Shown here piece by piece: positions 1-28,748 of a stretch of 32,000 nucleotides of DNA. Positions within the stretch are counted from its first letter, which is position 1. Every line of letters starts with the position of its first letter. The stretch is from Bacteroidota bacterium (lineage in GTDB: Bacteria > Bacteroidota > Bacteroidia > Chitinophagales > Chitinophagaceae): the NCBI GenBank assembly GCA_023423405.1, contig JAFAFR010000099.1, positions 16,293 to 48,292 of the forward strand, written 5' to 3'. The notes under the pieces were generated by a model. That model saw only the letters and a program-made list of their open reading frames with translations, was not told the DNA's origin and did not search any database. A program made the position numbers and the translations under genes.

Positions 1-1404
1 CGGGGGCTCGACCTCAGCGGCTTCTACAGCCAGCGCTTCGATAAAACAGGGCTCACCGTTTTCAGTTCTGCGAACTATAGTACGCCGTATGATCCCGCCG
101 GTATCGGCCTCACGGCCATTCCGCGTTTCAGCCGCTACACCATCCAGCCCAAGTTTTTTATCTACGGAAAAAATACCACGTTGAAAGTCGGCTTCAGCTA
201 TGTCACAGAAGCACGTACCGGCGGCAGCATGTCGTATATCAAAGACGATGTACCGGGATATTTTGAAAGGAACAATACCCGCCGTGGCACCACGCAGATT
301 GACCTGCAGCACCGCTTCAACGAGCGCACCAGCCTGCAGTTCAAAAACAGCTATTCCGGGTTTTATCGAAAGATCGCCATTCCTGCTTACCTCTTTGAAG
401 GCCGCCAGCAATCGAGCTATTCCGAACTGAACCTCAACACAAGAGCGGGCCGCACCACCTGGATAGCCGGACTCAACCTGCTGACCGATGATTTCAGCGA
501 AGTGCCGCACGCCACTACTGCGCTGCGCAATTACCACTACAATACCTGGGGACTCTTTTTGCAAAACACCTGGACACCCGCCGGAAAGCTCAGCCTTGAA
601 ACCGGCCTGCGCGGCGACTATGTACGGCAATACGGGTTTGAATGGCTGCCGCGAATCGCGCTGCTCTACAAAGCCGTTCCTGCATTAACCATACGGCTCG
701 GCGGAGGCATGGGATATAAAACGCCTTCGGTGTTCAATGAAGACGCAGAAAAAAGACAGTTCCAAAACATACTGCCGATAAACGAAGCTACTGCGCGCAA
801 TGAAAGATCCACCGGCGCTAACCTCGACTTCAACTACCGCACCAACCTGGGTGCCCTGGGCTTTTCGGGCAACCTGCTGTTTTATTATACCAGGCTGAAT
901 CATCCGCTGGTGATGCAGGATGCAGGAAGTGGCAACTACCAGTTTGTGAATGCAAATGGTCATATCGATACCCGCGGACTGGAAACCAACCTGAAGTTCC
1001 GTTACCACGATTTCAAATTATTTGTGGGCTATACTTATGCCGACGCGAATACCCATTACGACAACAGCAAAAGCTGGCTGCCGCTCACGGCGCGGCACCG
1101 CCTCAACAATGTGCTGATGTACGAAAAGGAAGACAATATCAAAATAGGATTGGAGGCTTATTATTTCAGTCCGCAGCAACTCTCCGATGGCGCCATGGGC
1201 CGGTCTTACTGGATCTGCGGATTTATGGTGGAAAAAGCCCTGGGCCCGGTATCGCTGTTCATCAATTTTGAGAACTTCCTGGATGTGCGGCAAACGCGCT
1301 TTGACACCATCTATACGGGCAGCATCGATAACCCCGTGTTCCGCGATATCTATGCACCGGTGGATGGTTTCGTGGTGAATGGCGGTTTTAAACTGCGGCT
1401 CTGA
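1..1404 (+). CDS. TonB-dependent receptor, C-terminal beta-barrel portion (5' end outside window)
   Basis: Frame 1 is open from nt 1, with no stop before the listed TTG at 181, so the ORF is cut by the window edge. The translation shows the alternating aromatic/polar beta-strand pattern of TBDR barrels (GLNLLTDDF, TRGLETNLKFRY, FVGYTYADA, terminal NGGFKLRL). Stop TGA at 1402-1404. Confidence 0.75.
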   Translation, partial: RGLDLSGFYSQRFDKTGLTVFSSANYSTPYDPAGIGLTAIPRFSRYTIQPKFFIYGKNTTLKVGFSYVTEARTGGSMSYIKDDVPGYFERNNTRRGTTQIDLQHRFNERTSLQFKNSYSGFYRKIAIPAYLFEGRQQSSYSELNLNTRAGRTTWIAGLNLLTDDFSEVPHATTALRNYHYNTWGLFLQNTWTPAGKLSLETGLRGDYVRQYGFEWLPRIALLYKAVPALTIRLGGGMGYKTPSVFNEDAEKRQFQNILPINEATARNERSTGANLDFNYRTNLGALGFSGNLLFYYTRLNHPLVMQDAGSGNYQFVNANGHIDTRGLETNLKFRYHDFKLFVGYTYADANTHYDNSKSWLPLTARHRLNNVLMYEKEDNIKIGLEAYYFSPQQLSDGAMGRSYWICGFMVEKALGPVSLFINFENFLDVRQTRFDTIYTGSIDNPVFRDIYAPVDGFVVNGGFKLRL

Positions 1405-2188: not shown

Positions 2189-2301
2189 TCCTTTCATCCT
2201 TATTCTGTTCAACTAAAGAGGCTTCTTCTTAATTTAGCGCGGGCCGGTTGTTTCAATGGATCGCTGCCGGCCCGTCTCCCGCTTCGAGGAGGAAAGCGCT
2301 A

Positions 2302-2898
2302 ATGGACAACCAAACGACTGCTTCTTACCTGCAACACTGGCAGGCTTTTCGTCTGCACAACGAGCAAAGCCTCTATTGGCTCTATCACGCGGAATACGAC
2401 CGGTTCTATCGCTACGGACTGTTGTCCGCGCAGGACCCACACCTCGTAAAATCCGCCATCAACGCGGTTTTTATTGATCTCTGGACCCGTCGCCAGTCGC
2501 TGCCCGACGTAGAGAATGTGCGGGGTTATCTCTTCATCTGTTTCAAACGGCGGCTCTTCCATGCTTTGCGCGCGGAAAAAGACAATGCCGTATCCCTGCC
2601 CGAAAACTGGCCGCAACACCTCGCCGAATCATCCTACGAAGATGCGCTCATCGGTCATGAACTGGATGCACGTCGCAAAGAGCAGATTCGCCGGGCCCTG
2701 GATACACTTACCGAAAGGCAACGAAGCTGTATAAGGATGCGTTTCTTCGAAGAACTGAGTTATGAAGAGATCGCAGAGCAAACCAATACAACGGTCCGCA
2801 CGGTGTACAATACCATTCACAATGCCATTAACCGGCTGCGCCAGGAGCTGGGCGACCTGCCTTTATTGCTCGCCTGGCTGCTGATGCTGCCAACCTGA
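2302..2898 (+). CDS. ECF-type RNA polymerase sigma-70 factor (FecI-like)
   Basis: Region-2-like segment (YDRFYRYGL..AINAVFIDLWTRR) and region-4 HTH (LSYEEIAEQTNTTVRTVYNTIHNAINRLRQEL). ATG 2302 is preferred over ORF start 2248 because GAGGAGGA (2286-2293) lies about 10 nt upstream. It is followed by a FecR gene. Confidence 0.85.
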   Translation: MDNQTTASYLQHWQAFRLHNEQSLYWLYHAEYDRFYRYGLLSAQDPHLVKSAINAVFIDLWTRRQSLPDVENVRGYLFICFKRRLFHALRAEKDNAVSLPENWPQHLAESSYEDALIGHELDARRKEQIRRALDTLTERQRSCIRMRFFEELSYEEIAEQTNTTVRTVYNTIHNAINRLRQELGDLPLLLAWLLMLPT

Positions 2899-2985
2899 TA
2901 AGTTGCAGTTTGCCGGCCCCTTCAAAAAAAACTTCTTCTTTCTTTGGTAAAACCCCATCAGTTCCTCCCTCTTTATTCCTGAGCC

Positions 2986-4032
2986 ATGTTGAACAAACGA
3001 GATTATAGCATAGAAGACCTGCTGCTGGACGATTCATTTGTGCACTACTGCCTGGATACCCGGCCGGAAGCAGTGGCAGCATGGGAAGAATGGCTGGCCG
3101 AAAACCCCGACCAGTCTGTGAAACTGGAGGCGGCCCGGAAAATGCTGTTTTCGCTGGGCATAAGACTGAGCCCTGAAGAAAAAGAAGAACAGTTTGCCCA
3201 ACTCAAAGCTGCCGTGGAAGCCATGCGAAACGGCGGCGCCAGGCAGGAGCCGGAAAAAAGACTGCGACCCGTTGCCGGATTTTTCCGCTGGGCAGCAGGC
3301 ATAGCGGCCGCTGTATTACTTATTGCAACTGGTTTTTACTGGCATAAGCTCACGGCCCCCGTTACCGAGCAGGCAGGCGTGCTGGCCTATGAACGCTATA
3401 ACACCGGCGATGGAGAACGCAAACGCATTGAACTTGCCGACGGCTCTGCAGTGATATTGAATTCCAACAGCTCGCTGCGTATACCGGCATCGTATAACCG
3501 AAAAGACCGGCAACTGGAACTGGAAGGTGAAGCGCTTTTCGAAGTGGCAAAAGATGCCGCCCGGCCCTTTACCGTACACAATAACCAGTTGGACGTGCAG
3601 GCGCTGGGAACCGTTTTTAAAGTAAGGGCCTATGGCTTTGAACCCGCCATCAGAACGGCTCTGCTGGAAGGAAAAGTGAAGCTGGACGACCGGCGCACCA
3701 AAAGGCCGTCGCGCTTCCTGGCGCCGGGCGAATGGTTACAGGTTGCAGGAGCCGACCGTTCCGTGGAAGCAGGAACCTTCGACCTGGAAGAAGAACGCCT
3801 GTGGCAGGAAGGCCGCCTGATCTTCAGGGATGCTTCCCTGGAAGAGATCGGCCGGAAACTTCAATACTGGTATGGGATGGAAGTGAGGCTGCAGGCCCAT
3901 CCGGGCAAGGCAGTCCATTTTAACGGGGAATTCATGAACCGTTCCCTCGAAGAGGTATTGAAAGCGATCGCTTATGTTAACAATCTCAGATGCTCGATAA
4001 ATAACCAACAGATCACGATTCTCGATAGATAA
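2986..4032 (+). CDS. FecR-family anti-sigma factor / transmembrane sensor
   Basis: N-terminal cytoplasmic domain, one TM helix (FFRWAAGIAAAVLLIATGFYW), a FecR domain (ELADGSAVILNSNSSLR..LEGEALFEV..PFTV) and a C-terminal segment (SLEEVLKAIAYVNNL). It lies between the ECF sigma factor and an STN-bearing SusC. Confidence 0.85.
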   Translation: MLNKRDYSIEDLLLDDSFVHYCLDTRPEAVAAWEEWLAENPDQSVKLEAARKMLFSLGIRLSPEEKEEQFAQLKAAVEAMRNGGARQEPEKRLRPVAGFFRWAAGIAAAVLLIATGFYWHKLTAPVTEQAGVLAYERYNTGDGERKRIELADGSAVILNSNSSLRIPASYNRKDRQLELEGEALFEVAKDAARPFTVHNNQLDVQALGTVFKVRAYGFEPAIRTALLEGKVKLDDRRTKRPSRFLAPGEWLQVAGADRSVEAGTFDLEEERLWQEGRLIFRDASLEEIGRKLQYWYGMEVRLQAHPGKAVHFNGEFMNRSLEEVLKAIAYVNNLRCSINNQQITILDR

Positions 4033-4053
4033 CTAAACCTTTAATGCTGCTAT

Positions 4054-7000
4054 ATGATGAAAATGCAACTCGCTACCGGGTGGCGTTACTACCTGCTATT
4101 GCCCGCACTCTCGCTCTTTCTGCTAATGGACCTTCCCGCACGGGGACAGGTGAACCAACCATCCAGCCAGCAGGACAACAGTGCCGGTTCCAAAAAGCTG
4201 AACATGGGATTCAGCAACGCCGAAATACTGACCGTTTTCAACAGGGTCAGTGAAAAAACAAAACTGAAATTCTCTTACAACAACGACGACATCGATCGCT
4301 CGCGTCGCATCAACCTGGAGAAAAAAGAAAGAAGTCTCGATGAGTTGCTGCAGTTGGTGGGACAGCAATCCAGTCTTGAGTTCCGCGTCGACAAAGACCT
4401 CATCCTGGTGAAGCCCATGGGCGCGAAGCCTGCCGAAGCTTCGCAGCAACAGGAAGAAGTACGGGGCTCGGTGCGCGCTGCCAATGGCGATCCGCTTGCC
4501 GGCGCCTCCGTGAGAGTGCGCAATAGCAACTACGGTGCGGCCACGGATGACCAGGGTAATTTCGTGTTCCGGAATATCGCCGGCGATGCCATCCTGGAAG
4601 TATCGCTGGTGGGATACGATCCCCTCGTGGAACCGCTGAAAAACCGCAGCCAGTTGAACCTGGTGCTGGTACCCAGCAGCCGCCAGATGGAACAGGTAGT
4701 GGTGGTGGGTTATGGCACCCAGCGCAAAAAAGATGTGATCGGCGCCGTGTCTTCCGTGAATACAAAAAACATGGAAAAGCTTACCGGAGCCAATGTAGCC
4801 GGACTGCTGCAGGGCCAGGTGGCGGGTGTTAACGCGGCGCCCGGCTCGGGCGATCCCGGCGCACCCCCGGTTGTACTGGTGCGTGGGCTTTCGACCATCA
4901 ACAACAATGATCCCCTGTATGTGATCGACGGCATCCCGGGCGACATCAATGCCATCAACCCGGCCGATATCCAGTCGATCGATGTGCTGAAAGATGCATC
5001 GGCTGCTACCATCTATGGTTCACGGGCTTCCAATGGTGTCATCATGGTCACCACCAAACGCGGCCGCACGGGAAAAATCCTCATTGGCATCAACAGTTAT
5101 TATGGCGTAAGCAGCCTGGCGAAAAGGCTGCCCCTGGCCAACCGCGAACAATACAATAAAATCCTCAACCAGGTGGCTGTGAACGATGGTTCCACGCCGC
5201 TGGATTATGTGAGCTCCGACACCTATGTGGATGCCGACGGCCAAACGCAGCGCTATCCCGATACCGACTGGCAGTCGGAGTTCTTCCGGTCTGCCCCGGA
5301 GAGTAAAATAGACGTGTCCGTTTCAGGCGGTACCAAAGACATGCGCATGAACGTATCCTTCGGCCGCTACGCACAGGATGGCATTGCCATCAAATCAAAT
5401 TTTGAACGCTACAATATCCAGGTGAACTCCGACCTGACCAAGGGCAAATTCAAATTCGGGGAATCTTTCTCTTTTTCCAAAGCCCAGCGTCGCCTGCTGC
5501 AGGGATCCAATGAAAGCACGGATATTAACCAGAACGCCGGTTATCCGCTGATCTATGAAATGATCAACCGCGTTCCGCATCACAAATTGTACGACCCTAA
5601 CAACGATGGTGGTTTCGGCGGTCGCATTGGTTACCAGATGTCCGATGCGGTGAATCCCGTGGGATACCAGACCCTCGTGGTCAGCAGGGAAGAACCCAGC
5701 TATTTCATCGGCAACGTATTTGGCGAATACCAGATCCTGAAACCGCTTAGCTTCCGGCTGCAATACGGCTTTAATTCGAACGACGGCTATGCATATACCC
5801 ATATACCAACTTACTATATGGGAGATAAAGTACAGAATCCGAATACGCAACTCTACGAATCGCGCAACAGGCGTTTCCGCGATGTGCTGAATGCCGTACT
5901 CACCTATAACAAAGTGTTGAAAGAGGTGCACAGCCTGAATGTGATGGCCGGTTATTCGCAGGAGAGCGAAACCATAAAAAGTTTGTCGGGGAGCAATAAT
6001 AACCTGCCCTCCAACGACCTGTGGGCGCTTTCTTATGGAATCGGCGACAGGTCATCGGGTGGCTCTGTATTCGAAAGCTCCCTGCGCTCGCTGTTCGGCC
6101 GGGTGAACTATTCGTACGACGGGAAATACCTGCTGGGCGCCAATGTGCGTCGCGATGGCTCTTCCCGCTTTTCCAGTTCAAATAAATACGGAACCTTTTA
6201 TTCGGTATCAGGCGCATGGCGTGTAAGCGAGGAGAATTTTTTTAAGAATAACGTGGAGAATATCAGCGAACTGAAATTGCGCGCCAGCTACGGAATATTG
6301 GGTAACCAGAATATCCCGGACTATCAATACCTGCCTGCCGTCATCAATTCCGGAACACCAACCGTGAACTATCCCTTTGGCGGCGGACTGCGCCAGGGTG
6401 TGTCGGTGGGAGCTATTGTTACAGGAGCTACATCACCCGATATCCGCTGGGAACAATCGGCCACTTTCAACACCGGTCTCGATCTCTCCATCCTCAACGA
6501 GCGCTTATTGCTGATCGTGGATTATTTCCACACACGCACTTCCGATATGCTGGTGACCATTCCTTTGCCTCCCAGTTCCGGCTTGCTGGAGAACCCCATC
6601 CGCAATGGCGGTGAAATGACAAACCAGGGACTGGACCTGTCGCTTACCTATCGCAAGAACAATGGCGACCTGCGGTTTGATATCACCGCCAATGTGTCGA
6701 CCAGCCGCAACAAGATTGTGAAACTTGGTTATGCCGACGAATCTTTCACCGATGGATACATGGACTTCAATAACTATCCCACCACCCGTACGGAAGTAGG
6801 TGGAGAGATAGGTCGCTTCTACCTGTACCAAACGGCTGGGGTCATCAAAACCGAGAAGGAACTGCAGGAGGTGCAAACGCTGCAACCCAATGCGCAGTTG
6901 GGAGACCTCCGCTTCGTGGACGTCAACAACGATGGTGAACTGAACGATGCCGACAGAACCTTTATGGGCAGCGGTCTGCCGCGGATGGAATACGGTCTTA

Positions 7001-7458
7001 CTACCAATTTTTCTTTCCGCAATTTTGATCTCAATATTTTCTTCCAGGGCACGCAGGGCAACTATATGTACAACGGTGCTAAAAGGCTGATGTACCAGAA
7101 TACCATTTTCAACAAATCCACCGATCTGCTGAATGCCTGGTCGCCGCAAAACCCCAATAGTGATATTCCGCGCGTATCGGTGATCGATGCCAACGGTAAT
7201 ATGGCGCGTCCCTCGGATCTCTTCCTGGAAAAAGGATCTTATTTGCGCCTCAAGAGCATGCAGTTGGGATACCGGTTCACGGTGAAAGGATTCAATGTGT
7301 TGCGGGCTTATGTGGGCGCCACCAACCTTTTTACCATCACCAATTATTCCGGCTACGATCCCGGCGTCGTGAACTATTCGTCTTTTGCGCGGGGTGTTGA
7401 CAGGGGGCTGTATCCTTTGTCGCGCAGCATTTTCGCCGGACTGAACATTGAGTTTTAA
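4054..7458 (+). CDS. SusC/RagA-family TonB-linked outer-membrane transporter with N-terminal STN signalling domain
   Basis: 1134 aa. Signal peptide, then an STN-like domain at about aa 47-121 (nt ~4192-4416: FSNAEILTVFNRVSEKTKLKFSY..LILVKP). A CarboxypepD_reg-like domain follows (VRGSVRAANGDPLAGASVRV..GNFVF..LEVSLVGYD), then a plug with a TonB-box-like VVVVGYGTQRKKDVIGAVS. The barrel ends ..FAGLNIEF. Alternative ATGs at 4057 and 4063. Confidence 0.9.
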   Translation: MMKMQLATGWRYYLLLPALSLFLLMDLPARGQVNQPSSQQDNSAGSKKLNMGFSNAEILTVFNRVSEKTKLKFSYNNDDIDRSRRINLEKKERSLDELLQLVGQQSSLEFRVDKDLILVKPMGAKPAEASQQQEEVRGSVRAANGDPLAGASVRVRNSNYGAATDDQGNFVFRNIAGDAILEVSLVGYDPLVEPLKNRSQLNLVLVPSSRQMEQVVVVGYGTQRKKDVIGAVSSVNTKNMEKLTGANVAGLLQGQVAGVNAAPGSGDPGAPPVVLVRGLSTINNNDPLYVIDGIPGDINAINPADIQSIDVLKDASAATIYGSRASNGVIMVTTKRGRTGKILIGINSYYGVSSLAKRLPLANREQYNKILNQVAVNDGSTPLDYVSSDTYVDADGQTQRYPDTDWQSEFFRSAPESKIDVSVSGGTKDMRMNVSFGRYAQDGIAIKSNFERYNIQVNSDLTKGKFKFGESFSFSKAQRRLLQGSNESTDINQNAGYPLIYEMINRVPHHKLYDPNNDGGFGGRIGYQMSDAVNPVGYQTLVVSREEPSYFIGNVFGEYQILKPLSFRLQYGFNSNDGYAYTHIPTYYMGDKVQNPNTQLYESRNRRFRDVLNAVLTYNKVLKEVHSLNVMAGYSQESETIKSLSGSNNNLPSNDLWALSYGIGDRSSGGSVFESSLRSLFGRVNYSYDGKYLLGANVRRDGSSRFSSSNKYGTFYSVSGAWRVSEENFFKNNVENISELKLRASYGILGNQNIPDYQYLPAVINSGTPTVNYPFGGGLRQGVSVGAIVTGATSPDIRWEQSATFNTGLDLSILNERLLLIVDYFHTRTSDMLVTIPLPPSSGLLENPIRNGGEMTNQGLDLSLTYRKNNGDLRFDITANVSTSRNKIVKLGYADESFTDGYMDFNNYPTTRTEVGGEIGRFYLYQTAGVIKTEKELQEVQTLQPNAQLGDLRFVDVNNDGELNDADRTFMGSGLPRMEYGLTTNFSFRNFDLNIFFQGTQGNYMYNGAKRLMYQNTIFNKSTDLLNAWSPQNPNSDIPRVSVIDANGNMARPSDLFLEKGSYLRLKSMQLGYRFTVKGFNVLRAYVGATNLFTITNYSGYDPGVVNYSSFARGVDRGLYPLSRSIFAGLNIEF

Positions 7459-7487
7459 TACTATTTCTAACGAATCAATTTTTGGCA

Positions 7488-14172
<6,685 letters not shown>

Positions 14173-14180
14173 TTCCGCAT

Positions 14181-16484
14181 ATGTTTATCAGTTTACCCGA
14201 GCTGGCTACCTGCCTGAAAGAAGAATTCAATCTCACCGGTGATCTGCAACCGCTGAATGGATACGACGAGCAGAATACGCTGCTCACCACCGCCAGCGGC
14301 GCGCGATACGTATGCAAACTGGCGGGCCCGCAACACGATCTTTTTTTCCTGGAAGCGCAGCTTCTTATGCTCGAACATCTCCGCAAACAGGGGCTGGACA
14401 AGGGTTTTCAGCAACCGGTCCCAAGTCGCGACGGCCGTTTGATCGCGATCATCAGCCATGGCGAAAACCGTTATTTCCTTCGCGTGCTGAATTACCTGGA
14501 AGGCGAATTCCTGGTCAAAAAGCCGGCCCACAGCAATGCCTTATTGCACAGCATCGGCCTTGCCCTGGGGGAAATGGATAAGGCCCTGTGTGGCTTTCAC
14601 CATCCGGCTTTCCAGCGGCATTATGAGTGGGATATCAGCAATGCGCTGGATGCCCGGCAATACATGCCTTATATCAGCCATCCTGAACAAAAGCGCCTGG
14701 TATCTTATTTCCTGTTGCAGTTTGAAACCGAAGTGTTGCCCCTGCTCCCAAAGCTGCGCAAAGCCTGCATTCACAACGATGCCAACGATTACAATGTGCT
14801 GGTGCGCGATGAACAGTTTGCCGGGCTGATTGATTTTGGTGACGCGGTACATGCGCCCCTGGTCAATAACCTGGCGGTAGCTGTCACTTATGCAATGTTG
14901 TCGAAGCCCGATCCGCTGCAGGCGGCGGTGGAACTGGTGAGAGGGTACCACCAGGCCTATCCTCTGCAGGAACAGGAACTTGGACTATTATATTATCTCG
15001 TTGCTGCGCGTTTGTGCATCAGCGTTGGTAAATCGGCCTTTAACCATGCGAGCGACAGCGACAACCAGCACCACTTCGTTACGGAAGCACCGGCCTGGAA
15101 ACTCGTCTACCAGTGGATCGAACTGAACCCGCTGAAAGCGGAGCATGCATTCCGCCTGGCCTGTGGCATGCCGGGATGCATCGAAGAAGAAGGTTATGAA
15201 GAACTGCTGATGCGCCGGCACGCCCACATTGGCCGCAACCTGAGCATCGGTTACCAAAAGAAACTGAAAATAGTGAAGGGTGCGCTGCAGTACCTGTACG
15301 ATGACAAAGGAAATACCTATGTGGACTGCGTGAACAACGTAAGCCATGTGGGTCACTGCCACCCGGACGTAGTAAAAGCCATGCAGCGGCAAATCGCTAC
15401 CCTGAACACCAACACGCGTTACCTCAGCGATCACCTGGTGAACTACGCCGAGCTGCTCACGGCGACGCTACCGGAAAAACTGAAAGTCTGTTATTTCACC
15501 AACTCCGGCAGTGAAGCCAACGACCTGGCCATCCGCATGAGCCGCCACTTCACCAAACAGAAAGACGTTGTGGTGCTCGACCATGCCTATCACGGCACGT
15601 CCACGGTTGCCATGGAAATGAGTCCCTATAAATTTGACGGTAAAGGTGGATTCGGCAAAATGCCTTACATCCACAAAGCCATGAATCCCGATGGCTATCG
15701 TGGACCGTATAAAGTTTCCGATCCCGAGGCGGGTGAAAAATATGCCGCCGATATAAAGCGGATCATTACAGAACTGGCAAAAGAAGGCAGAAAGCCCGCA
15801 GCTTTTATCTGCGAAACCCTGCTGGGTGTAGGCGGACAAATTCCGCTGCCACAGGGCTACCTGCAGGCGGCCTACCGCGAAGCGCGGAAAGCCGGCGCCA
15901 TCTGCATTGCCGACGAAGTGCAGGTGGGTTTCGGCAGGGTAGGGGATGCTTTCTGGGGATTTGAGCTCCAGGACGTGAAGCCAGATATTGTGGTATTGGG
16001 AAAACCTATCGGTAATGGTCACCCGCTGGCGGCAGTGGTGGTTACCGAAGAAATTGCCGATGCCTTCAACAACGGTATGGAATACTTCAATACCTATGGC
16101 GGCAACCCGGTGTCCATGGTCACGGGAAGAGCCGTGCTGCAGGTGATACAGCAGGAAGATCTGCAGGAACATGCGCGCGAAACAGGTAACTACCTCATGG
16201 AAGCACTCCGGGAGCTGGCGCCGAAGCACCGGCTCATAGGCGATGTAAGAGGTCATGGACTTTTTGTAGGTGTGGAGCTGGTGCGCAATACCGGCAGCCT
16301 TGAGCCCGCCGTTCCTGAAATAGATGAGATCGTGGAAGAAATGAAGAACCGGGGCTACCTGCTGAGTACGGATGGACCTCTTCACAACGTGCTGAAAATA
16401 AAACCGCCGCTGGTCTTTAACAAACAGAACGCAGACGGACTGGTTGCTTCGCTCGATGCAGTGATGACCAGTCTGGGTTATTGA
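14181..16484 (+). CDS. Bifunctional fusion: hydroxylysine-kinase-like (APH-fold) domain + AGXT2L-type class-III aminotransferase-fold phospho-lyase-like domain
   Basis: 767 aa with no signal peptide. The N-terminal ~335 aa carry a Brenner motif HNDANDYN (14772-14795), IDFGD (14829-14843), and LRVLNYLEGEF and FHHP, as I recall for HYKK/AGPHD1. The C-terminal ~430 aa carry NNVSHVGHCHP, CYFTNSGSEANDLA, ADEVQVGFGRVG, a PLP-Lys in VLGKPIGNGHP (K608, 16002-16004), MEYFNTYGGNPVS and NVLKIKPP. These closely resemble ETNPPL/PHYKPL as recalled. It starts 8 nt after the GH63-like stop. Confidence 0.85.
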   Translation: MFISLPELATCLKEEFNLTGDLQPLNGYDEQNTLLTTASGARYVCKLAGPQHDLFFLEAQLLMLEHLRKQGLDKGFQQPVPSRDGRLIAIISHGENRYFLRVLNYLEGEFLVKKPAHSNALLHSIGLALGEMDKALCGFHHPAFQRHYEWDISNALDARQYMPYISHPEQKRLVSYFLLQFETEVLPLLPKLRKACIHNDANDYNVLVRDEQFAGLIDFGDAVHAPLVNNLAVAVTYAMLSKPDPLQAAVELVRGYHQAYPLQEQELGLLYYLVAARLCISVGKSAFNHASDSDNQHHFVTEAPAWKLVYQWIELNPLKAEHAFRLACGMPGCIEEEGYEELLMRRHAHIGRNLSIGYQKKLKIVKGALQYLYDDKGNTYVDCVNNVSHVGHCHPDVVKAMQRQIATLNTNTRYLSDHLVNYAELLTATLPEKLKVCYFTNSGSEANDLAIRMSRHFTKQKDVVVLDHAYHGTSTVAMEMSPYKFDGKGGFGKMPYIHKAMNPDGYRGPYKVSDPEAGEKYAADIKRIITELAKEGRKPAAFICETLLGVGGQIPLPQGYLQAAYREARKAGAICIADEVQVGFGRVGDAFWGFELQDVKPDIVVLGKPIGNGHPLAAVVVTEEIADAFNNGMEYFNTYGGNPVSMVTGRAVLQVIQQEDLQEHARETGNYLMEALRELAPKHRLIGDVRGHGLFVGVELVRNTGSLEPAVPEIDEIVEEMKNRGYLLSTDGPLHNVLKIKPPLVFNKQNADGLVASLDAVMTSLGY

Positions 16485-16514
16485 GCAATACCCCCGTTAA
16501 AACAAAATTTGCAT

Positions 16515-17417
16515 ATGGAAAAACAAACAGCCACACGCGCAGCCGTGCTGGAAGGCCTCATGCGCCGCTACCGGGAACGGGTACCCGATGTGAACGCCAT
16601 CATCCTCGCGATGATCAAGGAAGGCATTATCCGACAGGCGGAAGACATCGAGAACGACCACATTGCCTTCCGCACGCTGGGTGTGTCACATCTTGGGATC
16701 GCTTCCCTCGAAAAAATATTCCTGCACCTCGGTTACGAAAAAAAGGATTACTATTCTTTTGAAGAAAAGAAACTGAACGCCTATTGGTATGCGCCCCCGG
16801 TGCCCGGCGAGCCGCGCATTTTTGTCAGTGAATTGCGTGTGCAGGAACTAGGGCCTGCTGCACAGGAAATTGTTCGGAAATACACCGCAGGCATTCAGCA
16901 GGATCCGGTAGACCAACTCAACCTCGACGATGCGGCGCAGGTGGACGAATTCCTGCACAGCGGCCTCTGGGAAACGCCTTCACTGGCCGATTACAGCCTG
17001 CTGCTGGAGGAAAGTGAGTACGCAGCCTGGGTGATCTTCAACCGTTATTATCTGAACCATTTTACCATCAGCGTCCATAATCTTAAAGAGGGCTATAACA
17101 CCATCCCGGCCTTTAACACGTTCCTGGAAAATGCAGGATTTGTATTGAACGACGCGGGCGGAAAAATTAAAACCAGTCCCGACGGTAACCTGCTGCAGAG
17201 CGCCACAATAGCGAAAAAGATCCGGGCTTCTTTTGCGGGCGGCGAAGAACAGCTCATTCCAGGGTCTTACGTGGAATTTGCAGAACGCAAAGTATTACCG
17301 GCTTTCCGCGAATTGCCCGGAGACACCATTGAACGCAGCCATCGCCGCGAGGGTTTTGAAGCAGCCAATGCCAACCGTATTTTTGAAAGCACGTACCGCG
17401 GGCAAACAGAACGCTGA
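16515..17417 (+). CDS. DUF1338 family protein (2-oxoadipate dioxygenase/decarboxylase HglS / YdcJ family, short form)
   Basis: Candidate His/His/Glu metal triad contexts NDHIAFRTLG, YYLNHFTISV and GSYVEFAERK, as in DUF1338. The ORF-track start 16509 is TTG. The first ATG is at 16515, about 30 nt after the fusion gene. Confidence 0.75.
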   Translation: MEKQTATRAAVLEGLMRRYRERVPDVNAIILAMIKEGIIRQAEDIENDHIAFRTLGVSHLGIASLEKIFLHLGYEKKDYYSFEEKKLNAYWYAPPVPGEPRIFVSELRVQELGPAAQEIVRKYTAGIQQDPVDQLNLDDAAQVDEFLHSGLWETPSLADYSLLLEESEYAAWVIFNRYYLNHFTISVHNLKEGYNTIPAFNTFLENAGFVLNDAGGKIKTSPDGNLLQSATIAKKIRASFAGGEEQLIPGSYVEFAERKVLPAFRELPGDTIERSHRREGFEAANANRIFESTYRGQTER

Positions 17418-17476: not shown

Positions 17477-18190
17477 ATGACGCAGAAAAAGTCGACCGTT
17501 GAAGAGATCAGGGCCAGGTTTGACCAGGACGTGGAAAGATTCTCTAACCTGGAATCGGGACAGTTGTCTACCATTGATGCAGCCATTTCGCTGGAGCTGA
17601 TCACGGAAGCATCGAAAAGGCTGGTGCCACATGCCACGCAATTGCTCGACATTGGCTGCGGCGCCGGGAACTACACGCTGAAAATGTTGCAGAAACTGCC
17701 GGGACTTACCTGCACATTGCTGGACCTGAGCCAACCCATGTTGGAACGTGCAGCGCAACGAGTAGGCGCCGCAACTACAGGTGCGGTCACTACCGTACAG
17801 GCCGATTTCCGCGAAGCCGGTCTCCCGGAAAACCAATACGACATCATACTGGCGGGTGCTGTTTTGCATCACCTGCGCGACGACGCCGATTGGGAAAGCA
17901 GCTTTGCGAAACTCTATGCCCTTTTGAAGAAGGGCGGCTGCCTCATGATCTCCGACCTGGTTACCCAGGACGATGAAAGGCTCACCGCCTATACCTGGGA
18001 ACGTTATGGCGACTACCTGGAAGCCACGGGTGGCGCGGATTACCGGCAAAAAGTACTCGATTACGTAGCGAAGGAGGATTCGCCCCGTTCGGTTACCTAT
18101 CAGTTGGCGCTGATGAAACGGCTCGGTTTCCGCGAAGTGGAAATCCTGCACAAGAACATGTGCTTCGCTGCCTTTGGCGGTATTAAATAA
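17477..18190 (+). CDS. Class I SAM-dependent methyltransferase
   Basis: SAM-binding motif I LLDIGCGAGNYTLKML, an acidic post-I residue (LLDLSQPML) and motif II/III-like DIILAGAVLHHL..GGCLMISD. Substrate unknown. Confidence 0.8.
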   Translation: MTQKKSTVEEIRARFDQDVERFSNLESGQLSTIDAAISLELITEASKRLVPHATQLLDIGCGAGNYTLKMLQKLPGLTCTLLDLSQPMLERAAQRVGAATTGAVTTVQADFREAGLPENQYDIILAGAVLHHLRDDADWESSFAKLYALLKKGGCLMISDLVTQDDERLTAYTWERYGDYLEATGGADYRQKVLDYVAKEDSPRSVTYQLALMKRLGFREVEILHKNMCFAAFGGIK

Positions 18191-18266: not shown

Positions 18267-18899
18267 ATGAAATACCTGCATCATCACTGCCAGCGTTACC
18301 TGACCGTCCTGGTTTTTGCAATGAACCTTCCCCTGCTCATGCCCGCGCAAACGTCCAAACCCTGGACGGAAAAGGACCGGCAATACCTGGTTGACAATCT
18401 CCGGAGAACCCGCGACGCACTGGCAAAAGAATGCGAATCGCTCACGGCCGAACAATGGGCATACAAGACAGACTCCTCGCAATGGTGCATTGGCCAGGTA
18501 TTGGAACACCTGGGATTGTACGAACGGATCTTTGCGCAGGAAGCCGATATCATGCTGAGCACTCCGCCCAACCCGGAGATGAACAAAAACGCTCTACCCG
18601 ATTCTGCTTATCTTTCCTGGATGAATGACCCCAGCCCGCACAAGGCGGAATGGAATGCAGAACCACTCGGGCTGATGAAAGGAAAAGACAATCTCCGTTT
18701 TTTTCTCTTTGGGCGCGATCACCTGATCGGCTTTATCCGCGAAACCAGCTACGACCTGAAATCACATTTCACCTATCGCTGGGGCGACGAGAAACGGCGA
18801 AGCATACACGCACTCATGGTGGTTCATTTCGGACATACCGACAGGCACCTGCGCCAGGTCCTCCGGATCAAAGCGATGCCCGGCTATCCTAAATCCTGA
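18267..18899 (+). CDS. DinB-family (DinB_2-like) four-helix-bundle protein, secreted
   Basis: N-terminal signal-like segment (LTVLVFAMNLPLLMPAQ). DinB-like pattern: LVDNLRRTRDAL..LTAEQW..WCIGQVLEHL..HFGHTDRHLRQV, with conserved His positions. Confidence 0.65.
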   Translation: MKYLHHHCQRYLTVLVFAMNLPLLMPAQTSKPWTEKDRQYLVDNLRRTRDALAKECESLTAEQWAYKTDSSQWCIGQVLEHLGLYERIFAQEADIMLSTPPNPEMNKNALPDSAYLSWMNDPSPHKAEWNAEPLGLMKGKDNLRFFLFGRDHLIGFIRETSYDLKSHFTYRWGDEKRRSIHALMVVHFGHTDRHLRQVLRIKAMPGYPKS

Positions 18900-18904
18900 T
18901 ACCC

Positions 18905-19633
18905 ATGTTTCGCCACCAGGGAAAAACCCGCACCTACGCCCACAACCTTCGCATCGCCTCTTTATTGTCTTTTGTAGCAGGACTCGTGAATGTGGTTGGC
19001 TTCCTGGCGGTGCAACGGCTTACCACCAATGTTACCGGGCACTTTGCCTTTTTTGTGGATGAAGTGTTCAAGCTGAATTTCTGGGGTGGACTGATCTACT
19101 TTTTTTACATCTTCTTTTTCTTCCTGGGTTCTTTTGTATCGAGTATGCTCATCGAGATCATGCAGCGCAAAAACGAGCAGTATATTTACGTGGTGCCCAC
19201 GCTCATAGAATGTATCATTCTTTTTTGCATCGGCGCCGTTGGTATGGAACTGGCATTTTCCGATCCTGACCTGATTGCATTCAGCTTGCTGTTTGCGATG
19301 GGATTACAGAACTCGCTCGTCACTACCATTTCGAGCGCTACCGTACGCACAACACACCTCACCGGCCTGTTCACCGATCTGGGCATCGAATTGTCGCAGT
19401 TGTTCTTTTACCGCGAGCCAGGGCAGAAGAAGAAATTGCTATCCTCCATCCGACTGCGGTTCACCATTATCAGTTTCTTTTTTATTGGCGGTGTGCTGGG
19501 TGGTGTGGCTTATGCGCGGTTCCAGTTGCATACCCTGCTCTTCGGTTCCCTGTCCCTGTTAGTGGGATTGATCTACGACAACATCAAATACCGCTTCATC
19601 CTGCTGCGCCGAAGGATAAAAGGCAATGGCTGA
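18905..19633 (+). CDS. YoaK/DUF1275-family inner-membrane protein
   Basis: Multi-TM hydrophobic protein carrying the family-typical LLSFVAGLVNVVGFLAVQRLTTNVTGHF and VRTTHLTGLFTDLG segments. Confidence 0.75.
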   Translation: MFRHQGKTRTYAHNLRIASLLSFVAGLVNVVGFLAVQRLTTNVTGHFAFFVDEVFKLNFWGGLIYFFYIFFFFLGSFVSSMLIEIMQRKNEQYIYVVPTLIECIILFCIGAVGMELAFSDPDLIAFSLLFAMGLQNSLVTTISSATVRTTHLTGLFTDLGIELSQLFFYREPGQKKKLLSSIRLRFTIISFFFIGGVLGGVAYARFQLHTLLFGSLSLLVGLIYDNIKYRFILLRRRIKGNG

Positions 19634-20407: not shown

Positions 20408-20423
20408 GGCAGCAACAGCATTT

Positions 20424-20452
20424 AAAAAAAGAGGCTGCCCTCAGCAGCCTCT
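20424..20452 (-). terminator. Rho-independent terminator downstream of the DUF1080 gene
   Basis: 9-bp stem AGAGGCTGC (20430-20438) / GCAGCCTCT (20444-20452) with a 5-nt loop. On the minus strand it is followed by TTTTTTT (plus-strand A-run 20424-20430). It lies between the DUF1080 stop (20458) and the ThuA start (20407). Confidence 0.6.
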
Positions 20453-20457
20453 TCCGG

Positions 20458-21201: not shown

Positions 21202-21202
21202 T

Positions 21203-21598: not shown

Positions 21599-21609
21599 GA
21601 TAGTTGTTT

Positions 21610-22662: not shown

Positions 22663-22680
22663 CGTAACAGGGTTTTGTTA

Positions 22681-23838: not shown

Positions 23839-23845
23839 GTAACAT

Positions 23846-24511: not shown

Positions 24512-24527
24512 CGTATGAGCGTTGGGG

Positions 24528-26267: not shown

Positions 26268-26492
26268 CGTCGGAAAAATATTGGTGTTGTAAGAGGGCTA
26301 AATTAAATGATTAATACTATTCGAAAATTGAAAATCCGCTGCTTAGCAGTATTAAAAAATCTGAACAAAAAGGTAAAAAAGGATTAACCCCTTTGGAAAG
26401 ATTGCATTTTTTTTGACGATCCTTAGCGGAAGTGTAGAAAATACACATGAATCCCATAAATTTATGCCGCTCTGATAGTATAAACCAACGAT

Positions 26493-27791: not shown

Positions 27792-27798
27792 TAGCATA

Positions 27799-28722: not shown

Positions 28723-28748
28723 TTAACCTGAAAAAGCAATAAACGATT

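What the first reader, a model, noticed from the sequence alone, without database searches (positions are those of the whole stretch)
2302..17417. Candidate glucosyl-galactosyl-hydroxylysine (collagen glycoside) utilisation locus: PUL glycosidases in one unit with hydroxylysine catabolic enzymes
Seen in sequence:
- The plus-strand run from susC to the DUF1338 gene has gaps of only 29, 5, -4, 8 and 30 nt (the 29 and 30 use the preferred ATG starts, 7488 for SusD and 16515 for DUF1338). I found no terminator hairpin in it, so it is very likely one transcript.
- It encodes outer-membrane uptake (SusC/SusD), a secreted LacZ-type GH2 beta-galactosidase and a secreted GH63-like alpha-glycosidase.
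- It then encodes a cytoplasmic fusion of a hydroxylysine-kinase-like domain to an AGXT2L-type phospho-lyase domain, followed by a DUF1338/HglS-family enzyme.

Established knowledge:
- The collagen O-glycan is Glc-alpha1,2-Gal-beta1-O-hydroxylysine.
- Animal HYKK phosphorylates 5-hydroxylysine. PHYKPL converts 5-phosphohydroxylysine to 2-aminoadipate semialdehyde, ammonia and phosphate.
- HglS (DUF1338) converts 2-oxoadipate, two steps further down the same route, to D-2-hydroxyglutarate.

Inference:
- An alpha-glucosidase plus a beta-galactosidase plus hydroxylysine kinase/lyase plus an aminoadipate-branch enzyme is the enzyme set needed to dismantle Glc-Gal-Hyl and feed both sugars and the amino acid into central metabolism.
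- I am not aware of a described PUL dedicated to glycosylated hydroxylysine.

Caveats:
- No peptidase, inner-membrane Hyl transporter, aminoadipate-semialdehyde dehydrogenase or aminoadipate aminotransferase is in the window.
- The amino-alcohol substrate could be something else, for example ethanolamine-type or another glycosylated amino alcohol.
Basis: partly seen in the sequence, partly recalled or inferred. Interest (0 to 1): 0.85.

Follow-up and report, generated by a model that had tools for sequence, protein, structure and literature searches.

The report
Collagen sugar–hydroxylysine utilisation locus
This bacterial gene cluster most likely imports the sugar-decorated hydroxylysine unit of collagen (glucose–galactose–hydroxylysine), strips off the two sugars and then breaks down the amino acid itself; no such bacterial pathway was found in the literature I could search, and it recurs in many soil, water and gut bacteria.

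Summary
Eight + strand genes lie at 2248-17417: ECF sigma, FecR anti-sigma, SusC, SusD, a LacZ-type GH2, a YgjK-like GH63, a kinase/phospho-lyase fusion and a DUF1338/HglS enzyme.

Comparative genomics supports the Glc-Gal-hydroxylysine reading:
- SusC-SusD / beta-galactosidase / GH63 / kinase-lyase recurs in at least 13 other Bacteroidota loci. In Flavobacterium a GH42 replaces the GH2.
- There are three gene fusions: kinase-lyase-HglS in one ORF, GH2-GH63 in Flavihumibacter, and GH63-GH2 in Phycisphaera.
- The "missing" aminoadipate-semialdehyde (piperideine-6-carboxylate) dehydrogenase follows HglS in Niabella. It also neighbours the kinase-lyase in Halomonas, Streptomyces and Flavobacterium.
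- Gut Bacteroides carry SusC-SusD-lysine-exporter-GH2-GH63.
- E. coli has ebgAC-ygjI(amino-acid transporter)-ygjJ-ygjK.

The catalytic residues of all four enzymes are intact.

Caveats:
- Nothing has been tested biochemically.
- Elizabethkingia uses a close GH63 homologue in a starch-like PUL.
- No peptidase or inner-membrane hydroxylysine transporter is in the window.
- No prior description was found in the held literature.

Verdict: a probable new PUL variant, interest about 0.75.

The parts
2248..2898 (+). ECF-type sigma-70 factor (probable ATG start at 2302), candidate regulator of the locus
   Evidence: PF08281/PF04545 and TIGR02937. The same sigma-FecR-SusC layout is seen in metagenome locus L088. 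Other genera carry a TPR regulator instead.
2986..4032 (+). FecR-type anti-sigma factor
   Evidence: PF04773 and PF16344. It ends 21 nt before SusC.
4054..7458 (+). SusC/RagA TonB-dependent outer-membrane transporter with an N-terminal extension
   Evidence: TIGR04056, 832 bits (cut-off 368), with Plug and barrel domains. Only a weak STN-like match at residues 72-121 (E 0.017, below threshold).
7482..9044 (+). SusD-family surface lipoprotein (ATG at 7488)
   Evidence: PF07980 and PF14322. Lipobox ...LVTGSAC followed by SKDF.
9050..12166 (+). Secreted LacZ-type GH2 beta-galactosidase; proposed to cleave Gal-beta-O-hydroxylysine
   Evidence: Five GH2/LacZ domains. NCBIfam Bga2A 954 bits, just under the cut-off of 999. 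LacZ E461 and E537 are conserved, and H418 is replaced by Asp. Signal peptide present. Replaced by a GH42 beta-galactosidase in Flavobacterium.
12163..14172 (+). Secreted YgjK-like GH63 alpha-glucosidase; proposed to remove the alpha1,2-glucose from Glc-Gal-Hyl
   Evidence: PF22422, PF21152 and PF03200. PDB YgjK E 2.4e-83, with D324 (WDxWK), D501 (WESGxD) and E727 (ENY) conserved. Signal peptide present. Fused to GH2 in Flavihumibacter and Phycisphaera.
14181..16484 (+). Cytoplasmic bifunctional protein: APH-fold small-molecule kinase (about residues 1-335) plus a class-III PLP phospho-lyase (about 340-767); proposed 5-hydroxylysine kinase / 5-phosphohydroxylysine phospho-lyase
   Evidence: PF01636 and PF00202. 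Invariant H198-x-D200-x4-N205, D218-F-G-D221 and PLP-Lys K608. Lyase domain E 2.7e-145 to human ETNPPL (6TOR) and 1e-98 to phospholyase A1RDF1. The kinase model has pLDDT 92, and its nearest folds are homoserine, amicoumacin and aminopropanol kinases. One homologue is named hydroxylysine kinase/5-phosphonooxy-L-lysine phospho-lyase by a source (P0051).
16509..17417 (+). DUF1338/HglS-family Fe(II) oxygenase (ATG at 16515); proposed 2-oxoadipate to 2-hydroxyglutarate synthase
   Evidence: PF07063 E 1e-66. Full-length match to rice FLO7 (6W1K), E 4.5e-62, with DHIAFRT (His + Arg), NHFT (His) and EFAER (Glu) aligned. FLO7 activity and the role of these residues are given in PMC7286885. Fused in frame to the kinase-lyase in L004.

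Best explanation
The locus is a polysaccharide-utilisation-type operon specialised for the collagen-type O-glycan glucosyl-alpha1,2-galactosyl-beta-5-hydroxylysine, either free or on short peptides.

Proposed mechanism (every step is inferred; nothing has been tested biochemically):
1. An ECF sigma/anti-sigma pair switches the operon on when SusC senses the substrate.
2. SusD binds the glyco-amino acid or glycopeptide, and SusC imports it into the periplasm.
3. In the periplasm the YgjK-like GH63 removes the terminal alpha1,2-glucose.
4. The LacZ-type GH2 then removes the beta-galactose. This frees the 5-hydroxyl of hydroxylysine, which is exactly the group the kinase needs.
5. Hydroxylysine enters the cytoplasm through a transporter not encoded in the window.
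6. The N-terminal APH-fold domain of the fusion phosphorylates the 5-hydroxyl.
7. The C-terminal PLP domain eliminates phosphate and ammonia, giving 2-aminoadipate semialdehyde / piperideine-6-carboxylate.
8. Enzymes encoded elsewhere in this genome, but inside the operon in Niabella, oxidise this product to 2-aminoadipate. Transamination gives 2-oxoadipate.
9. The DUF1338/HglS enzyme converts 2-oxoadipate to 2-hydroxyglutarate, which leads to 2-oxoglutarate.

Both sugars and the amino acid are thus harvested.
For: Anatomy: tight + strand operon, secreted glycosidases and cytoplasmic catabolic enzymes.

Synteny, from loci fetched with the kinase-lyase as bait. These loci were not selected for glycosidases.
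- 7 of the 8 Bacteroidota loci with enough upstream DNA carry SusC-SusD plus a beta-galactosidase directly upstream of the kinase-lyase, six of them with a GH63 as well: L004-L008, L012, L053. A ninth, short locus (L001) carries GH63 and GH42.
- Further loci with SusC-SusD, GH2, GH63 and the kinase-lyase: Pseudobacter L085, Niabella L086, metagenome L088, Flavihumibacter L093, Solitalea L094.
- Outside Bacteroidota: Phycisphaera L013 has SSF transporter, GH63-GH2 fusion and kinase-lyase. Marinimicrobia L027 and L030, and L017, have GH2 beside the lyase.

Non-orthologous displacement: GH2 is replaced by GH42, also a beta-galactosidase, in three Flavobacterium loci.

Gene fusions: kinase-lyase-HglS as a single 1078-aa ORF in L004; GH2-GH63 as a 1672-aa protein in Flavihumibacter; GH63-GH2 as a 1659-aa ORF in Phycisphaera.

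Identity of the aglycone:
- In Niabella the operon continues HGLS, then an aldehyde dehydrogenase that passes the NCBIfam equivalog cut-off for L-piperidine-6-carboxylate dehydrogenase (837 bits against 730). Its best PDB hits are Pcd and ALDH7A1.
- Orthologues of that dehydrogenase at 57-72% identity lie within 10 kb of the kinase-lyase in Halomonas L077 (directly upstream), Streptomyces L070 (about 3.4 kb upstream) and Flavobacterium L053 (just upstream of the locus's SusC).
- Gut Bacteroides PULs carry Lys_export (PF03956) genes between SusD and GH2.
- In E. coli an amino-acid-type APC transporter, YgjI, lies between ebgAC and ygjK.

Collagen flavour: Xaa-Pro aminopeptidase (M24) genes neighbour the kinase-lyase in L018, L025, L027 and L051. 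L027 also has a proline-racemase-family gene.

Enzyme integrity and closest characterised relatives: YgjK, LacZ residues, ETNPPL and A1RDF1 phospho-lyases, FLO7.

Established knowledge, from memory and not from the tools:
- The collagen glycan is Glc-alpha1,2-Gal-beta1-O-5-Hyl.
- Human HYKK and PHYKPL convert 5-hydroxylysine to aminoadipate semialdehyde. Their identification started from bacterial kinase/lyase fusion proteins (Veiga-da-Cunha et al., JBC 2012).
- YgjK glycosynthase and hydrolysis data point to Glc-alpha1,2-Gal (Miyazaki et al., FEBS J 2013).
Against: - No enzyme of this locus or of any orthologue has been assayed. Substrate specificity of GH2, GH63, kinase and lyase is inferred from context.
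- The lyase domain cannot be assigned to PHYKPL rather than ETNPPL from the data available (no PHYKPL or HYKK sequence or structure could be retrieved).
- Elizabethkingia GH63 proteins, 47% identical and nested within the same clade in an NJ tree, sit in a starch-like PUL with SusE, GH97 and GH13. GH63 of this clade is therefore not diagnostic of Glc-Gal on its own.
- L002 has the kinase-lyase without glycosidases. Most of the non-Bacteroidota loci fetched have no adjacent GH2 or GH63.
- The window encodes no peptidase, no inner-membrane hydroxylysine transporter, no aminoadipate-semialdehyde dehydrogenase and no aminoadipate transaminase.
- HglS is adjacent in only 5 of about 14 Bacteroidota loci.
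- The GH2 and GH63 scores are below the NCBIfam equivalog cut-offs.
Confidence: 0.72

Rival explanations
1. The glycosidase half is a generic PUL for a beta-galactoside/alpha-glucoside glycan, such as a plant, algal or bacterial oligosaccharide containing Glc-alpha1,2-Gal or kojibiose/nigerose-type links. The kinase-lyase and DUF1338 genes are functionally unrelated neighbours that merely share the transcript.
For: - Elizabethkingia places a 47%-identical GH63 in a starch-like PUL with SusE, GH97 and GH13.
- From my own knowledge, YgjK also hydrolyses nigerose and kojibiose.
- Gut Bacteroides have SusC-SusD-GH2-GH63 without the kinase-lyase.
Against: - The pairing of glycosidases with the kinase-lyase recurs in more than 13 loci and 3 phyla, with different gene orders, transporters (SusCD or SSF) and beta-galactosidase families.
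- The gut variant replaces the kinase-lyase with lysine-exporter-family genes, not with nothing.
- The hydroxyl the kinase would need is the one carrying the galactose, which gives a mechanistic reason for the linkage.
Confidence: 0.1
2. The locus degrades a glycoside of a different vicinal amino alcohol, for example glycosylated ethanolamine, aminopropanol, or a sphingoid or aminocyclitol compound. The kinase-lyase then acts as in ethanolamine-phosphate or aminopropanol-phosphate phospho-lyase systems.
For: - The best solved relative of the lyase domain is human ethanolamine-phosphate phospho-lyase.
- Among the structural neighbours of the kinase domain is the microcompartment aminopropanol kinase 6EF6.
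- Kinase and lyase specificity cannot be read from sequence here.
Against: - Products of those reactions (acetaldehyde, propionaldehyde) do not feed 2-oxoadipate. Yet HglS is adjacent in 5 loci and fused in frame in L004.
- A piperideine-6-carboxylate/aminoadipate-semialdehyde dehydrogenase, specific for the product expected from hydroxylysine, is in the Niabella operon and lies within 10 kb of the kinase-lyase in Halomonas, Streptomyces and Flavobacterium.
- Lysine-exporter genes sit in the gut PUL.
Confidence: 0.08
3. The chemistry is as proposed (Glc-Gal-Hyl or Gal-Hyl), but the ecological substrate is not animal collagen. It could be free urinary hydroxylysine glycosides, collagen-like domains of other proteins (C1q, adiponectin, collectins), or hydroxylysine-containing proteins of microbes, giant viruses or diatoms.
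For: - The carriers are mostly soil and freshwater Chitinophagaceae, Sphingobacteriaceae and Flavobacterium, plus marine Marinimicrobia and Phycisphaera.
- No collagenase or other peptidase is in the window.
- SSF-type transporters in non-Bacteroidota loci suggest uptake of a small free glycoside.
Against: - This is a refinement rather than a contradiction of the main explanation.
- M24 Xaa-Pro aminopeptidase and proline-racemase-family neighbours point to collagen-type peptides in some lineages.
Confidence: 0.25

Closest known systems
Bacteroidota polysaccharide utilisation loci (Sus-like systems), especially ECF-sigma/anti-sigma-regulated host-glycan PULs
   Same: SusC/SusD pair followed by secreted glycoside hydrolases in one operon, with an ECF sigma and a FecR anti-sigma immediately upstream.
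   Different: The proposed substrate is a disaccharide on an amino acid rather than a polysaccharide. The operon also carries cytoplasmic enzymes that catabolise the aglycone: a kinase/phospho-lyase and HglS, plus P6C dehydrogenase in Niabella. No described PUL of this kind was found in ten literature searches.
Animal hydroxylysine catabolism: HYKK (hydroxylysine kinase) and PHYKPL (5-phosphohydroxylysine phospho-lyase)
   Same: APH-fold kinase plus AGXT2L-type class-III PLP phospho-lyase. The lyase domain matches human ETNPPL, the paralogue of PHYKPL, at E 3e-145. A homologue is named after these two enzymes by a source.
   Different: The two activities are fused in one 767-aa polypeptide and embedded in a glycan-uptake operon. 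No bacterial member has been assayed, to my knowledge. Assignment to PHYKPL rather than ETNPPL rests on genomic context only.
E. coli YgjK (GH63) and the ebgRAC-ygjIJK region
   Same: Periplasmic GH63 with the same catalytic residues, encoded next to a GH2 beta-galactosidase and an amino-acid-type transporter.
   Different: 33% identity. The E. coli region has no SusCD and no kinase-lyase. EbgA lacks a signal peptide. The natural substrates of Ebg and YgjK are not established.
HglS / FLO7 (DUF1338) 2-oxoadipate to 2-hydroxyglutarate synthases of lysine catabolism
   Same: Full-length similarity to FLO7 (E 4.5e-62), with the His/His/Glu triad and substrate arginine conserved.
   Different: Here it is linked to a hydroxylysine-releasing glycan locus rather than to D-lysine or saccharopine pathway genes. 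In one genome it is fused to the kinase-lyase.
Vertebrate PGGHG (GH65 protein-glucosylgalactosylhydroxylysine glucosidase)
   Same: It would catalyse the same reaction proposed for the GH63: removal of alpha1,2-Glc from Glc-Gal-Hyl (activity described in PMC8626586).
   Different: A different glycoside hydrolase family and clan (GH65, clan GH-L, against GH63, clan GH-G). This would be analogous rather than homologous.

Membership tests
Polysaccharide utilisation locus (PUL) | Adjacent SusC-like TonB-dependent transporter and SusD-like lipoprotein genes | tested here: met
   TIGR04056, 832 bits (cut-off 368), plus the TIGR04057 signature. PF07980 and PF14322 for SusD, with a lipobox.
Polysaccharide utilisation locus (PUL) | Co-transcribed secreted carbohydrate-active enzymes | tested here: met
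   GH2 and GH63, both with signal peptides. Gaps of 5 and -4 nt, and no intergenic terminator. Co-transcription itself was not measured.
ECF-sigma / anti-sigma / SusC trans-envelope signalling | STN-type N-terminal signalling domain on the SusC | tested here: inconclusive
   Sigma and FecR genes are present. The SusC N-terminus gives only a sub-threshold STN match (E 0.017, 15.4 bits against a cut-off of 28.4).
GH2 LacZ-type beta-galactosidase | Five-domain LacZ architecture with catalytic Glu461 (acid/base) and Glu537 (nucleophile) | tested here: met
   PF02837, PF00703, PF02836, PF16353 and PF02929. LGNES and CEYAH motifs aligned with LacZ. NCBIfam Bga2A 954 bits, just below the equivalog cut-off of 999.
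GH2 LacZ-type beta-galactosidase | Activity on Gal-beta-O-hydroxylysine | not testable with these tools
   Needs an enzyme assay.
GH63, YgjK subfamily | (alpha/alpha)6 catalytic domain with YgjK N-domain and catalytic Asp501/Glu727 plus Asp324 | tested here: met
   PF21152, PF22422 and PF03200. WDSWK, WESGMD and YENY aligned to YgjK D324, D501 and E727. The NCBIfam YgjK equivalog score of 401 is below the cut-off of 625, so this is a homologue and not an equivalog.
GH63, YgjK subfamily | Preference for Glc-alpha1,2-Gal | not testable with these tools
   +1 subsite residues could not be evaluated. A close homologue in Elizabethkingia sits in a starch-like PUL.
Hydroxylysine kinase (HYKK) family | APH-fold kinase with the catalytic HxDxxxxN and DFG-type motifs | tested here: met
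   PF01636. Invariant H198, D200, N205, D218 and D221. Confident APH-fold model (pLDDT 92).
Hydroxylysine kinase (HYKK) family | Orthology to animal HYKK and specificity for 5-hydroxy-L-lysine | not testable with these tools
   No HYKK structure in the PDB. The AlphaFold-database library was unavailable. The only pointer is a source-given name on P0051.
AGXT2L-type ammonio-phospho-lyases (ETNPPL/PHYKPL) | Class-III PLP fold with the catalytic Lys, clustering with phospho-lyases rather than transaminases | tested here: met
   E 2.7e-145 to ETNPPL and 1e-98 to phospholyase A1RDF1, against 1e-50 or weaker for true transaminases and racemases. K608 is invariant.
AGXT2L-type ammonio-phospho-lyases (ETNPPL/PHYKPL) | Product is 2-aminoadipate semialdehyde, i.e. 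PHYKPL-type rather than ETNPPL-type | tested here: inconclusive
   Context only. P6C/AASA dehydrogenase and HglS are adjacent or fused in orthologous loci. There is no direct sequence discrimination.
HglS / DUF1338 hydroxyglutarate synthase | His-His-Glu metal triad plus the 2-oxoadipate-binding arginine (HglS His70/Arg74, His226, Glu294) | tested here: met
   DHIAFRT, NHFT and EFAER aligned with FLO7 (6W1K). The residue roles, and the prediction that Arg-containing DUF1338 proteins make 2HG, come from PMC7286885.

The most novel reading that the evidence does not exclude
Glc-Gal-hydroxylysine catabolism is a widespread, modular bacterial trait built around a GH63 alpha-glucosidase / beta-galactosidase pair.
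- Soil and aquatic Bacteroidota, Planctomycetota and Marinimicrobia couple the pair to a hydroxylysine kinase/phospho-lyase, often with HglS and P6C dehydrogenase, and consume the whole molecule.
- Human-gut Bacteroides couple it to a lysine-exporter-family protein, take only the sugars and dispose of hydroxylysine.
- The E. coli ebgAC-ygjI-ygjJ-ygjK region is a third variant. This would give the classic "evolved beta-galactosidase" Ebg and YgjK their long-sought natural substrate.
Probability: 0.35. Interest if true: 0.88.

Novelty: new variant of a known kind. Interest (0 to 1): 0.75.

Why it matters
- **Fate of collagen glycosides.** Collagen is the most abundant animal protein. From my own knowledge, animals degrade its hydroxylysine glycosides poorly and excrete them in urine as Gal-Hyl and Glc-Gal-Hyl. 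Their microbial fate is essentially undescribed.
- **A complete, testable pathway.** The locus would provide a route covering uptake, two deglycosylations and aglycone catabolism.
- **A wider PUL concept.** PULs would extend to glyco-amino acids, with integrated amino-acid breakdown.
- **Physiological roles for orphan enzymes.** These are bacterial YgjK-type GH63 enzymes, the bacterial kinase/phospho-lyase fusions that originally led to the discovery of human HYKK and PHYKPL, and Bacteroidota HglS.
- **Two leads of broader interest.** One is a conserved gut-Bacteroides PUL that may forage host or dietary collagen glycans. The other is the unexplained natural function of the E. coli ebg/ygjK region.

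Tried and rejected
- **Terminator and promoter scans.** Counts are no higher than in shuffles, so they say nothing beyond the absence of an intergenic terminator.
- **Downstream genes.** The methyltransferase (17477-18190), DinB (18267-18899) and DUF1275 (18905-19633) genes were considered as part of the locus and rejected. No homologue occurs in any related locus. The methyltransferase next to the Marinimicrobia kinase shares only the generic SAM-binding region.
- **Metagenome scan with the GH63 as a single-protein query.** It returned only two loci, so a systematic reverse-direction statistic was not possible. It was replaced by nine context look-ups on GH63 and fusion homologues. Two further look-ups found no record.
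- **Comparing the kinase domain with animal HYKK.** The AlphaFold-database library was unavailable, and the PDB holds no HYKK.
- **Veiga-da-Cunha 2012 paper.** It could not be read, so I cannot exclude that it already mentions glycosidase neighbours of the bacterial fusions.
- **Source organism of the window.** An exact cluster look-up gave no name. By best hits it is a Chitinophagaceae bacterium near Flavihumibacter (72% for the fusion, 66% for the GH63).
- **MAFFT run on 120 fusion homologues.** It timed out and was replaced by motif-based slicing.

Full report
**1. What is in the window**

Between 2248 and 17417 the + strand carries eight consecutive ORFs. Pfam and NCBIfam identify them as follows:
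- An ECF sigma factor (2248-2898, likely ATG at 2302).
- A FecR anti-sigma factor (2986-4032).
- A SusC/RagA transporter (4054-7458; TIGR04056, 832 bits against a cut-off of 368).
- A SusD lipoprotein (7482/7488-9044).
- A five-domain LacZ-type GH2 (9050-12166).
- A YgjK-like GH63 (12163-14172).
- A 767-aa fusion of an APH-fold kinase and a class-III PLP enzyme (14181-16484).
- A 302-aa DUF1338/HGLS protein (16509/16515-17417).

No terminator-like hairpin falls in an intergenic gap, and the scan as a whole is not above shuffled expectation.

SusC, SusD (lipobox GSAC), GH2 and GH63 have N-terminal leaders. The fusion and the DUF1338 protein do not.

The three genes that follow (methyltransferase, DinB, DUF1275) have no counterpart in any related locus. 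I do not count them as part of the system.

**2. The individual enzymes**

*GH63.*
- Its closest solved relative is E. coli YgjK (E 2.4e-83). YgjK's D324, D501 and E727 align with WDSWK, WESGMD and YENY in the window protein.
- Identity to YgjK is about 33%. The NCBIfam YgjK equivalog cut-off is not reached (401 against 625).

*GH2.*
- It keeps LacZ E461 and E537. The Mg ligand H418 is Asp here and in Niabella.

*Kinase-lyase fusion.*
- The lyase domain matches human ethanolamine-phosphate phospho-lyase at E 2.7e-145 and the Arthrobacter phospholyase A1RDF1 at 1e-98. Genuine transaminases and racemases score 1e-50 or worse.
- The PLP lysine (K608) and the kinase motifs (H198/D200/N205, D218/D221) are invariant among homologues.
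- An AlphaFold model of the kinase domain is confident (pLDDT 92). It resembles small-molecule kinases such as homoserine, amicoumacin, N-acetylhexosamine and aminopropanol kinases.

*DUF1338.*
- The protein aligns end to end with PDB 6W1K (E 4.5e-62). That entry is rice FLO7, shown in vitro to convert 2-oxoadipate to 2-hydroxyglutarate.
- The authors of that study predict this activity for every DUF1338 protein that keeps the substrate arginine (PMC7286885).
- The window protein keeps the H-x3-R motif, the second His and the Glu.

**3. Related loci**

A scan of one genome per species with a profile of the kinase-lyase returned 80 loci from many phyla. This sample was not selected for glycosidases.
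- 7 of the 8 Bacteroidota loci with enough upstream sequence carry SusC-SusD and a beta-galactosidase immediately upstream of the kinase-lyase, and six of those seven also carry a GH63. They are Sphingobacteriales L004 (GH2 only), Chitinophaga L005, Pedobacter L006 and L007, a Chitinophagaceae MAG L008, and Flavobacterium L012 and L053. A ninth, short locus (L001) carries GH63 and GH42.
- In the three Flavobacterium loci the GH2 is replaced by a secreted GH42 beta-galactosidase. Displacement by an unrelated enzyme of the same class argues that beta-galactosidase activity is what is selected.
- Context look-ups starting from GH63 or fusion homologues added five more loci: Pseudobacter (L085), Niabella (L086), a metagenome contig with the same sigma/FecR layout (L088), Flavihumibacter petaseus (L093) and Solitalea canadensis (L094).
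- Outside Bacteroidota, Phycisphaera (L013) has an SSF transporter, GH63-GH2 and the kinase-lyase in a tight + strand run.
- Marinimicrobia (L027, L030) and an unclassified MAG (L017) have GH2 next to the lyase. L027 and L017, like Phycisphaera L013, also carry orthologous SSF transporters.

**4. Fusions**

Three independent gene fusions link the parts:
- Kinase-lyase-HglS as one 1078-aa ORF in L004.
- GH2-GH63 as one 1672-aa protein in Flavihumibacter.
- GH63-GH2, in the opposite order, as one 1659-aa ORF in Phycisphaera.

**5. What the aglycone is**

The kinase/lyase module alone could act on several vicinal amino alcohols. Context discriminates between them.
- HglS is adjacent in five Bacteroidota loci: the window, L004, L007, L086 and L093.
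- In Niabella the operon runs GH2, GH63, kinase-lyase, HGLS and then an aldehyde dehydrogenase. That dehydrogenase exceeds the NCBIfam equivalog cut-off for L-piperidine-6-carboxylate dehydrogenase (837 against 730). Its best structural relatives are Pcd and human ALDH7A1, the alpha-aminoadipic semialdehyde dehydrogenase.
- This is the enzyme that consumes the product expected from 5-phosphohydroxylysine.
- Orthologues of it at 57-72% identity lie within 10 kb of the kinase-lyase in Halomonas (directly upstream), Streptomyces (about 3.4 kb upstream) and Flavobacterium sp. LHD-85 (just upstream of the locus's SusC).
- Ethanolamine or aminopropanol would yield C2 or C3 aldehydes. Neither enzyme would have a use for those.

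Independent hints come from variants that lack the kinase-lyase:
- Human-gut Bacteroides (B. intestinalis and relatives) have a conserved SusC-SusD-Lys_export-Lys_export-GH2-GH63 unit with differing flanks.
- E. coli K-12 has ebgR-ebgA-ebgC-ygjI-ygjJ-ygjK on one strand, where YgjI is an amino-acid-type APC transporter.

Several kinase-lyase loci also carry an M24 Xaa-Pro aminopeptidase. One also carries a proline-racemase-family gene. Both suit collagen peptides.

**6. Mechanism**

1. SusCD takes up Glc-alpha1,2-Gal-beta-Hyl, free or on short peptides.
2. The periplasmic GH63 removes the glucose and the GH2 removes the galactose.
3. Hydroxylysine enters the cytoplasm and is phosphorylated on O5.
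4. The lyase domain converts it to aminoadipate semialdehyde, ammonia and phosphate.
5. The aminoadipate branch ends with HglS.

There is a structural reason for the linkage. The hydroxyl that the kinase must phosphorylate is the one that carries the galactose, so deglycosylation has to come first.

All steps are inferred from homology and context. None is shown.

The chemistry of the collagen glycan, of HYKK/PHYKPL (Veiga-da-Cunha et al. 2012) and of YgjK's preference for Glc-alpha1,2-Gal (Miyazaki et al. 2013) is cited from my own knowledge. The first paper could not be opened here, and the second is not in the searchable library.

**7. Evidence against and limits**

- Elizabethkingia GH63 proteins are 47% identical to the window enzyme and nest inside the same clade in a simple NJ tree. 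They sit in a starch-like PUL with SusE, GH97 and GH13. GH63 of this clade is thus not by itself diagnostic of a Glc-Gal substrate.
- One Bacteroidota locus (L002) and most of the loci fetched from other phyla have the kinase-lyase without glycosidases. Those presumably use free hydroxylysine or another substrate.
- The window has no peptidase, no inner-membrane transporter, no semialdehyde dehydrogenase and no aminoadipate transaminase.
- PHYKPL-type and ETNPPL-type specificity could not be distinguished from sequence. HYKK orthology could not be tested.

**8. Novelty**

Ten full-text searches found no paper that describes a bacterial locus for glycosylated hydroxylysine, or that links YgjK/Ebg to collagen glycosides.
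- The nearest papers treat GH65 PGGHG and bacterial alpha-1,2-glucosidases.
- From memory, the bacterial kinase/lyase fusions are known as sequences and prompted the discovery of the human enzymes. Their physiological setting was not established, as far as I know.
- I cannot exclude that the 2012 paper mentions glycosidase neighbours.

I classify the locus as a new variant of a known kind: a PUL with a new class of substrate and built-in aglycone catabolism.

**9. Verdict**

- Confidence in the Glc-Gal-Hyl mechanism is about 0.72.
- Interest is about 0.75. The pathway is directly testable in cultured strains. It would also explain the microbial fate of collagen glycosides and give leads on a gut Bacteroides PUL and on the E. 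coli ebg/ygjK puzzle.

Noticed in passing
L081 (E. coli K-12 NC_000913.3, 3221466-3231239): ebgR-ebgA-ebgC-ygjI-ygjJ-ygjK lie on one strand. The run comprises the "evolved" GH2 beta-galactosidase, whose natural substrate is unknown; an APC amino-acid-type transporter; YgjJ; and the GH63 YgjK. The logic (GH2 + GH63 + amino-acid handling) matches the window locus and suggests Gal-Hyl/Glc-Gal-Hyl as the natural substrate.
   Followed up: partly
L082 836-11938; L083; L089 960-11929; L090 1035-11929: Human-gut Bacteroides (B. intestinalis and relatives) carry a conserved PUL: SusC, SusD, Lys_export (PF03956, 92 + 201 aa), GH2, GH63. It has no kinase-lyase, and its flanks differ between genomes. It may harvest the sugars of collagen glycosides and dispose of hydroxylysine.
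   Followed up: partly
L093 4980-9998; L013 4974-9953; L004 9986-13222: Three independent gene fusions: GH2-GH63 (Flavihumibacter petaseus, 1672 aa), GH63-GH2 (Phycisphaera, 1659 aa) and kinase-lyase-HglS (Sphingobacteriales bacterium 50-39, 1078 aa).
   Followed up: yes
L084 4447-17656; L087 4529-14168: Elizabethkingia GH63 proteins, 47% identical to the window GH63, sit in a starch-like PUL (SusC, SusD, SusE, GH63, GH97; in L084 also GH13 and MFS). The same GH63 clade is therefore also used on alpha-glucans.
   Followed up: partly
window 19634-30434: A neighbouring two-strand cluster encodes ThuA, a 3-keto-disaccharide hydrolase, cytochrome c, two sugar-isomerase-like TIM barrels, a GFO/IDH/MocA oxidoreductase, gluconate 2-dehydrogenase subunit 3, two GMC oxidoreductases and an MFS transporter. 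It looks like an oxidative (3-keto) glycoside-cleavage system unrelated to the finding.
   Followed up: no
window 9050-12166 (GH2 residue aligned to LacZ His418): The LacZ Mg2+ ligand His418 is replaced by Asp (IECDGM) in the window GH2 and in the Niabella orthologue. It is His in the gut, Phycisphaera, Marinimicrobia, EbgA and LacZ sequences.
   Followed up: no
window 181-1404: A 407-aa ORF matches only the beta-barrel of TonB-dependent receptors and has no Plug domain hit. It may be a truncated or frameshifted receptor gene.
   Followed up: no
L027 7380-18131: A Marinimicrobia locus strings together M24 Xaa-Pro aminopeptidase, a methyltransferase, separate kinase and lyase genes, GH2, an SSF transporter and a proline-racemase-family gene. 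This is a collagen-peptide-flavoured variant without SusCD.
   Followed up: partly
window 14181-16484 versus 12163-14172: The protein database holds a 100%-identical copy of the window's GH63 (P0121). The best hit to the window's kinase-lyase is only 75% identical, and no contig record could be retrieved for P0121. This is probably a database or indexing quirk.
   Followed up: no
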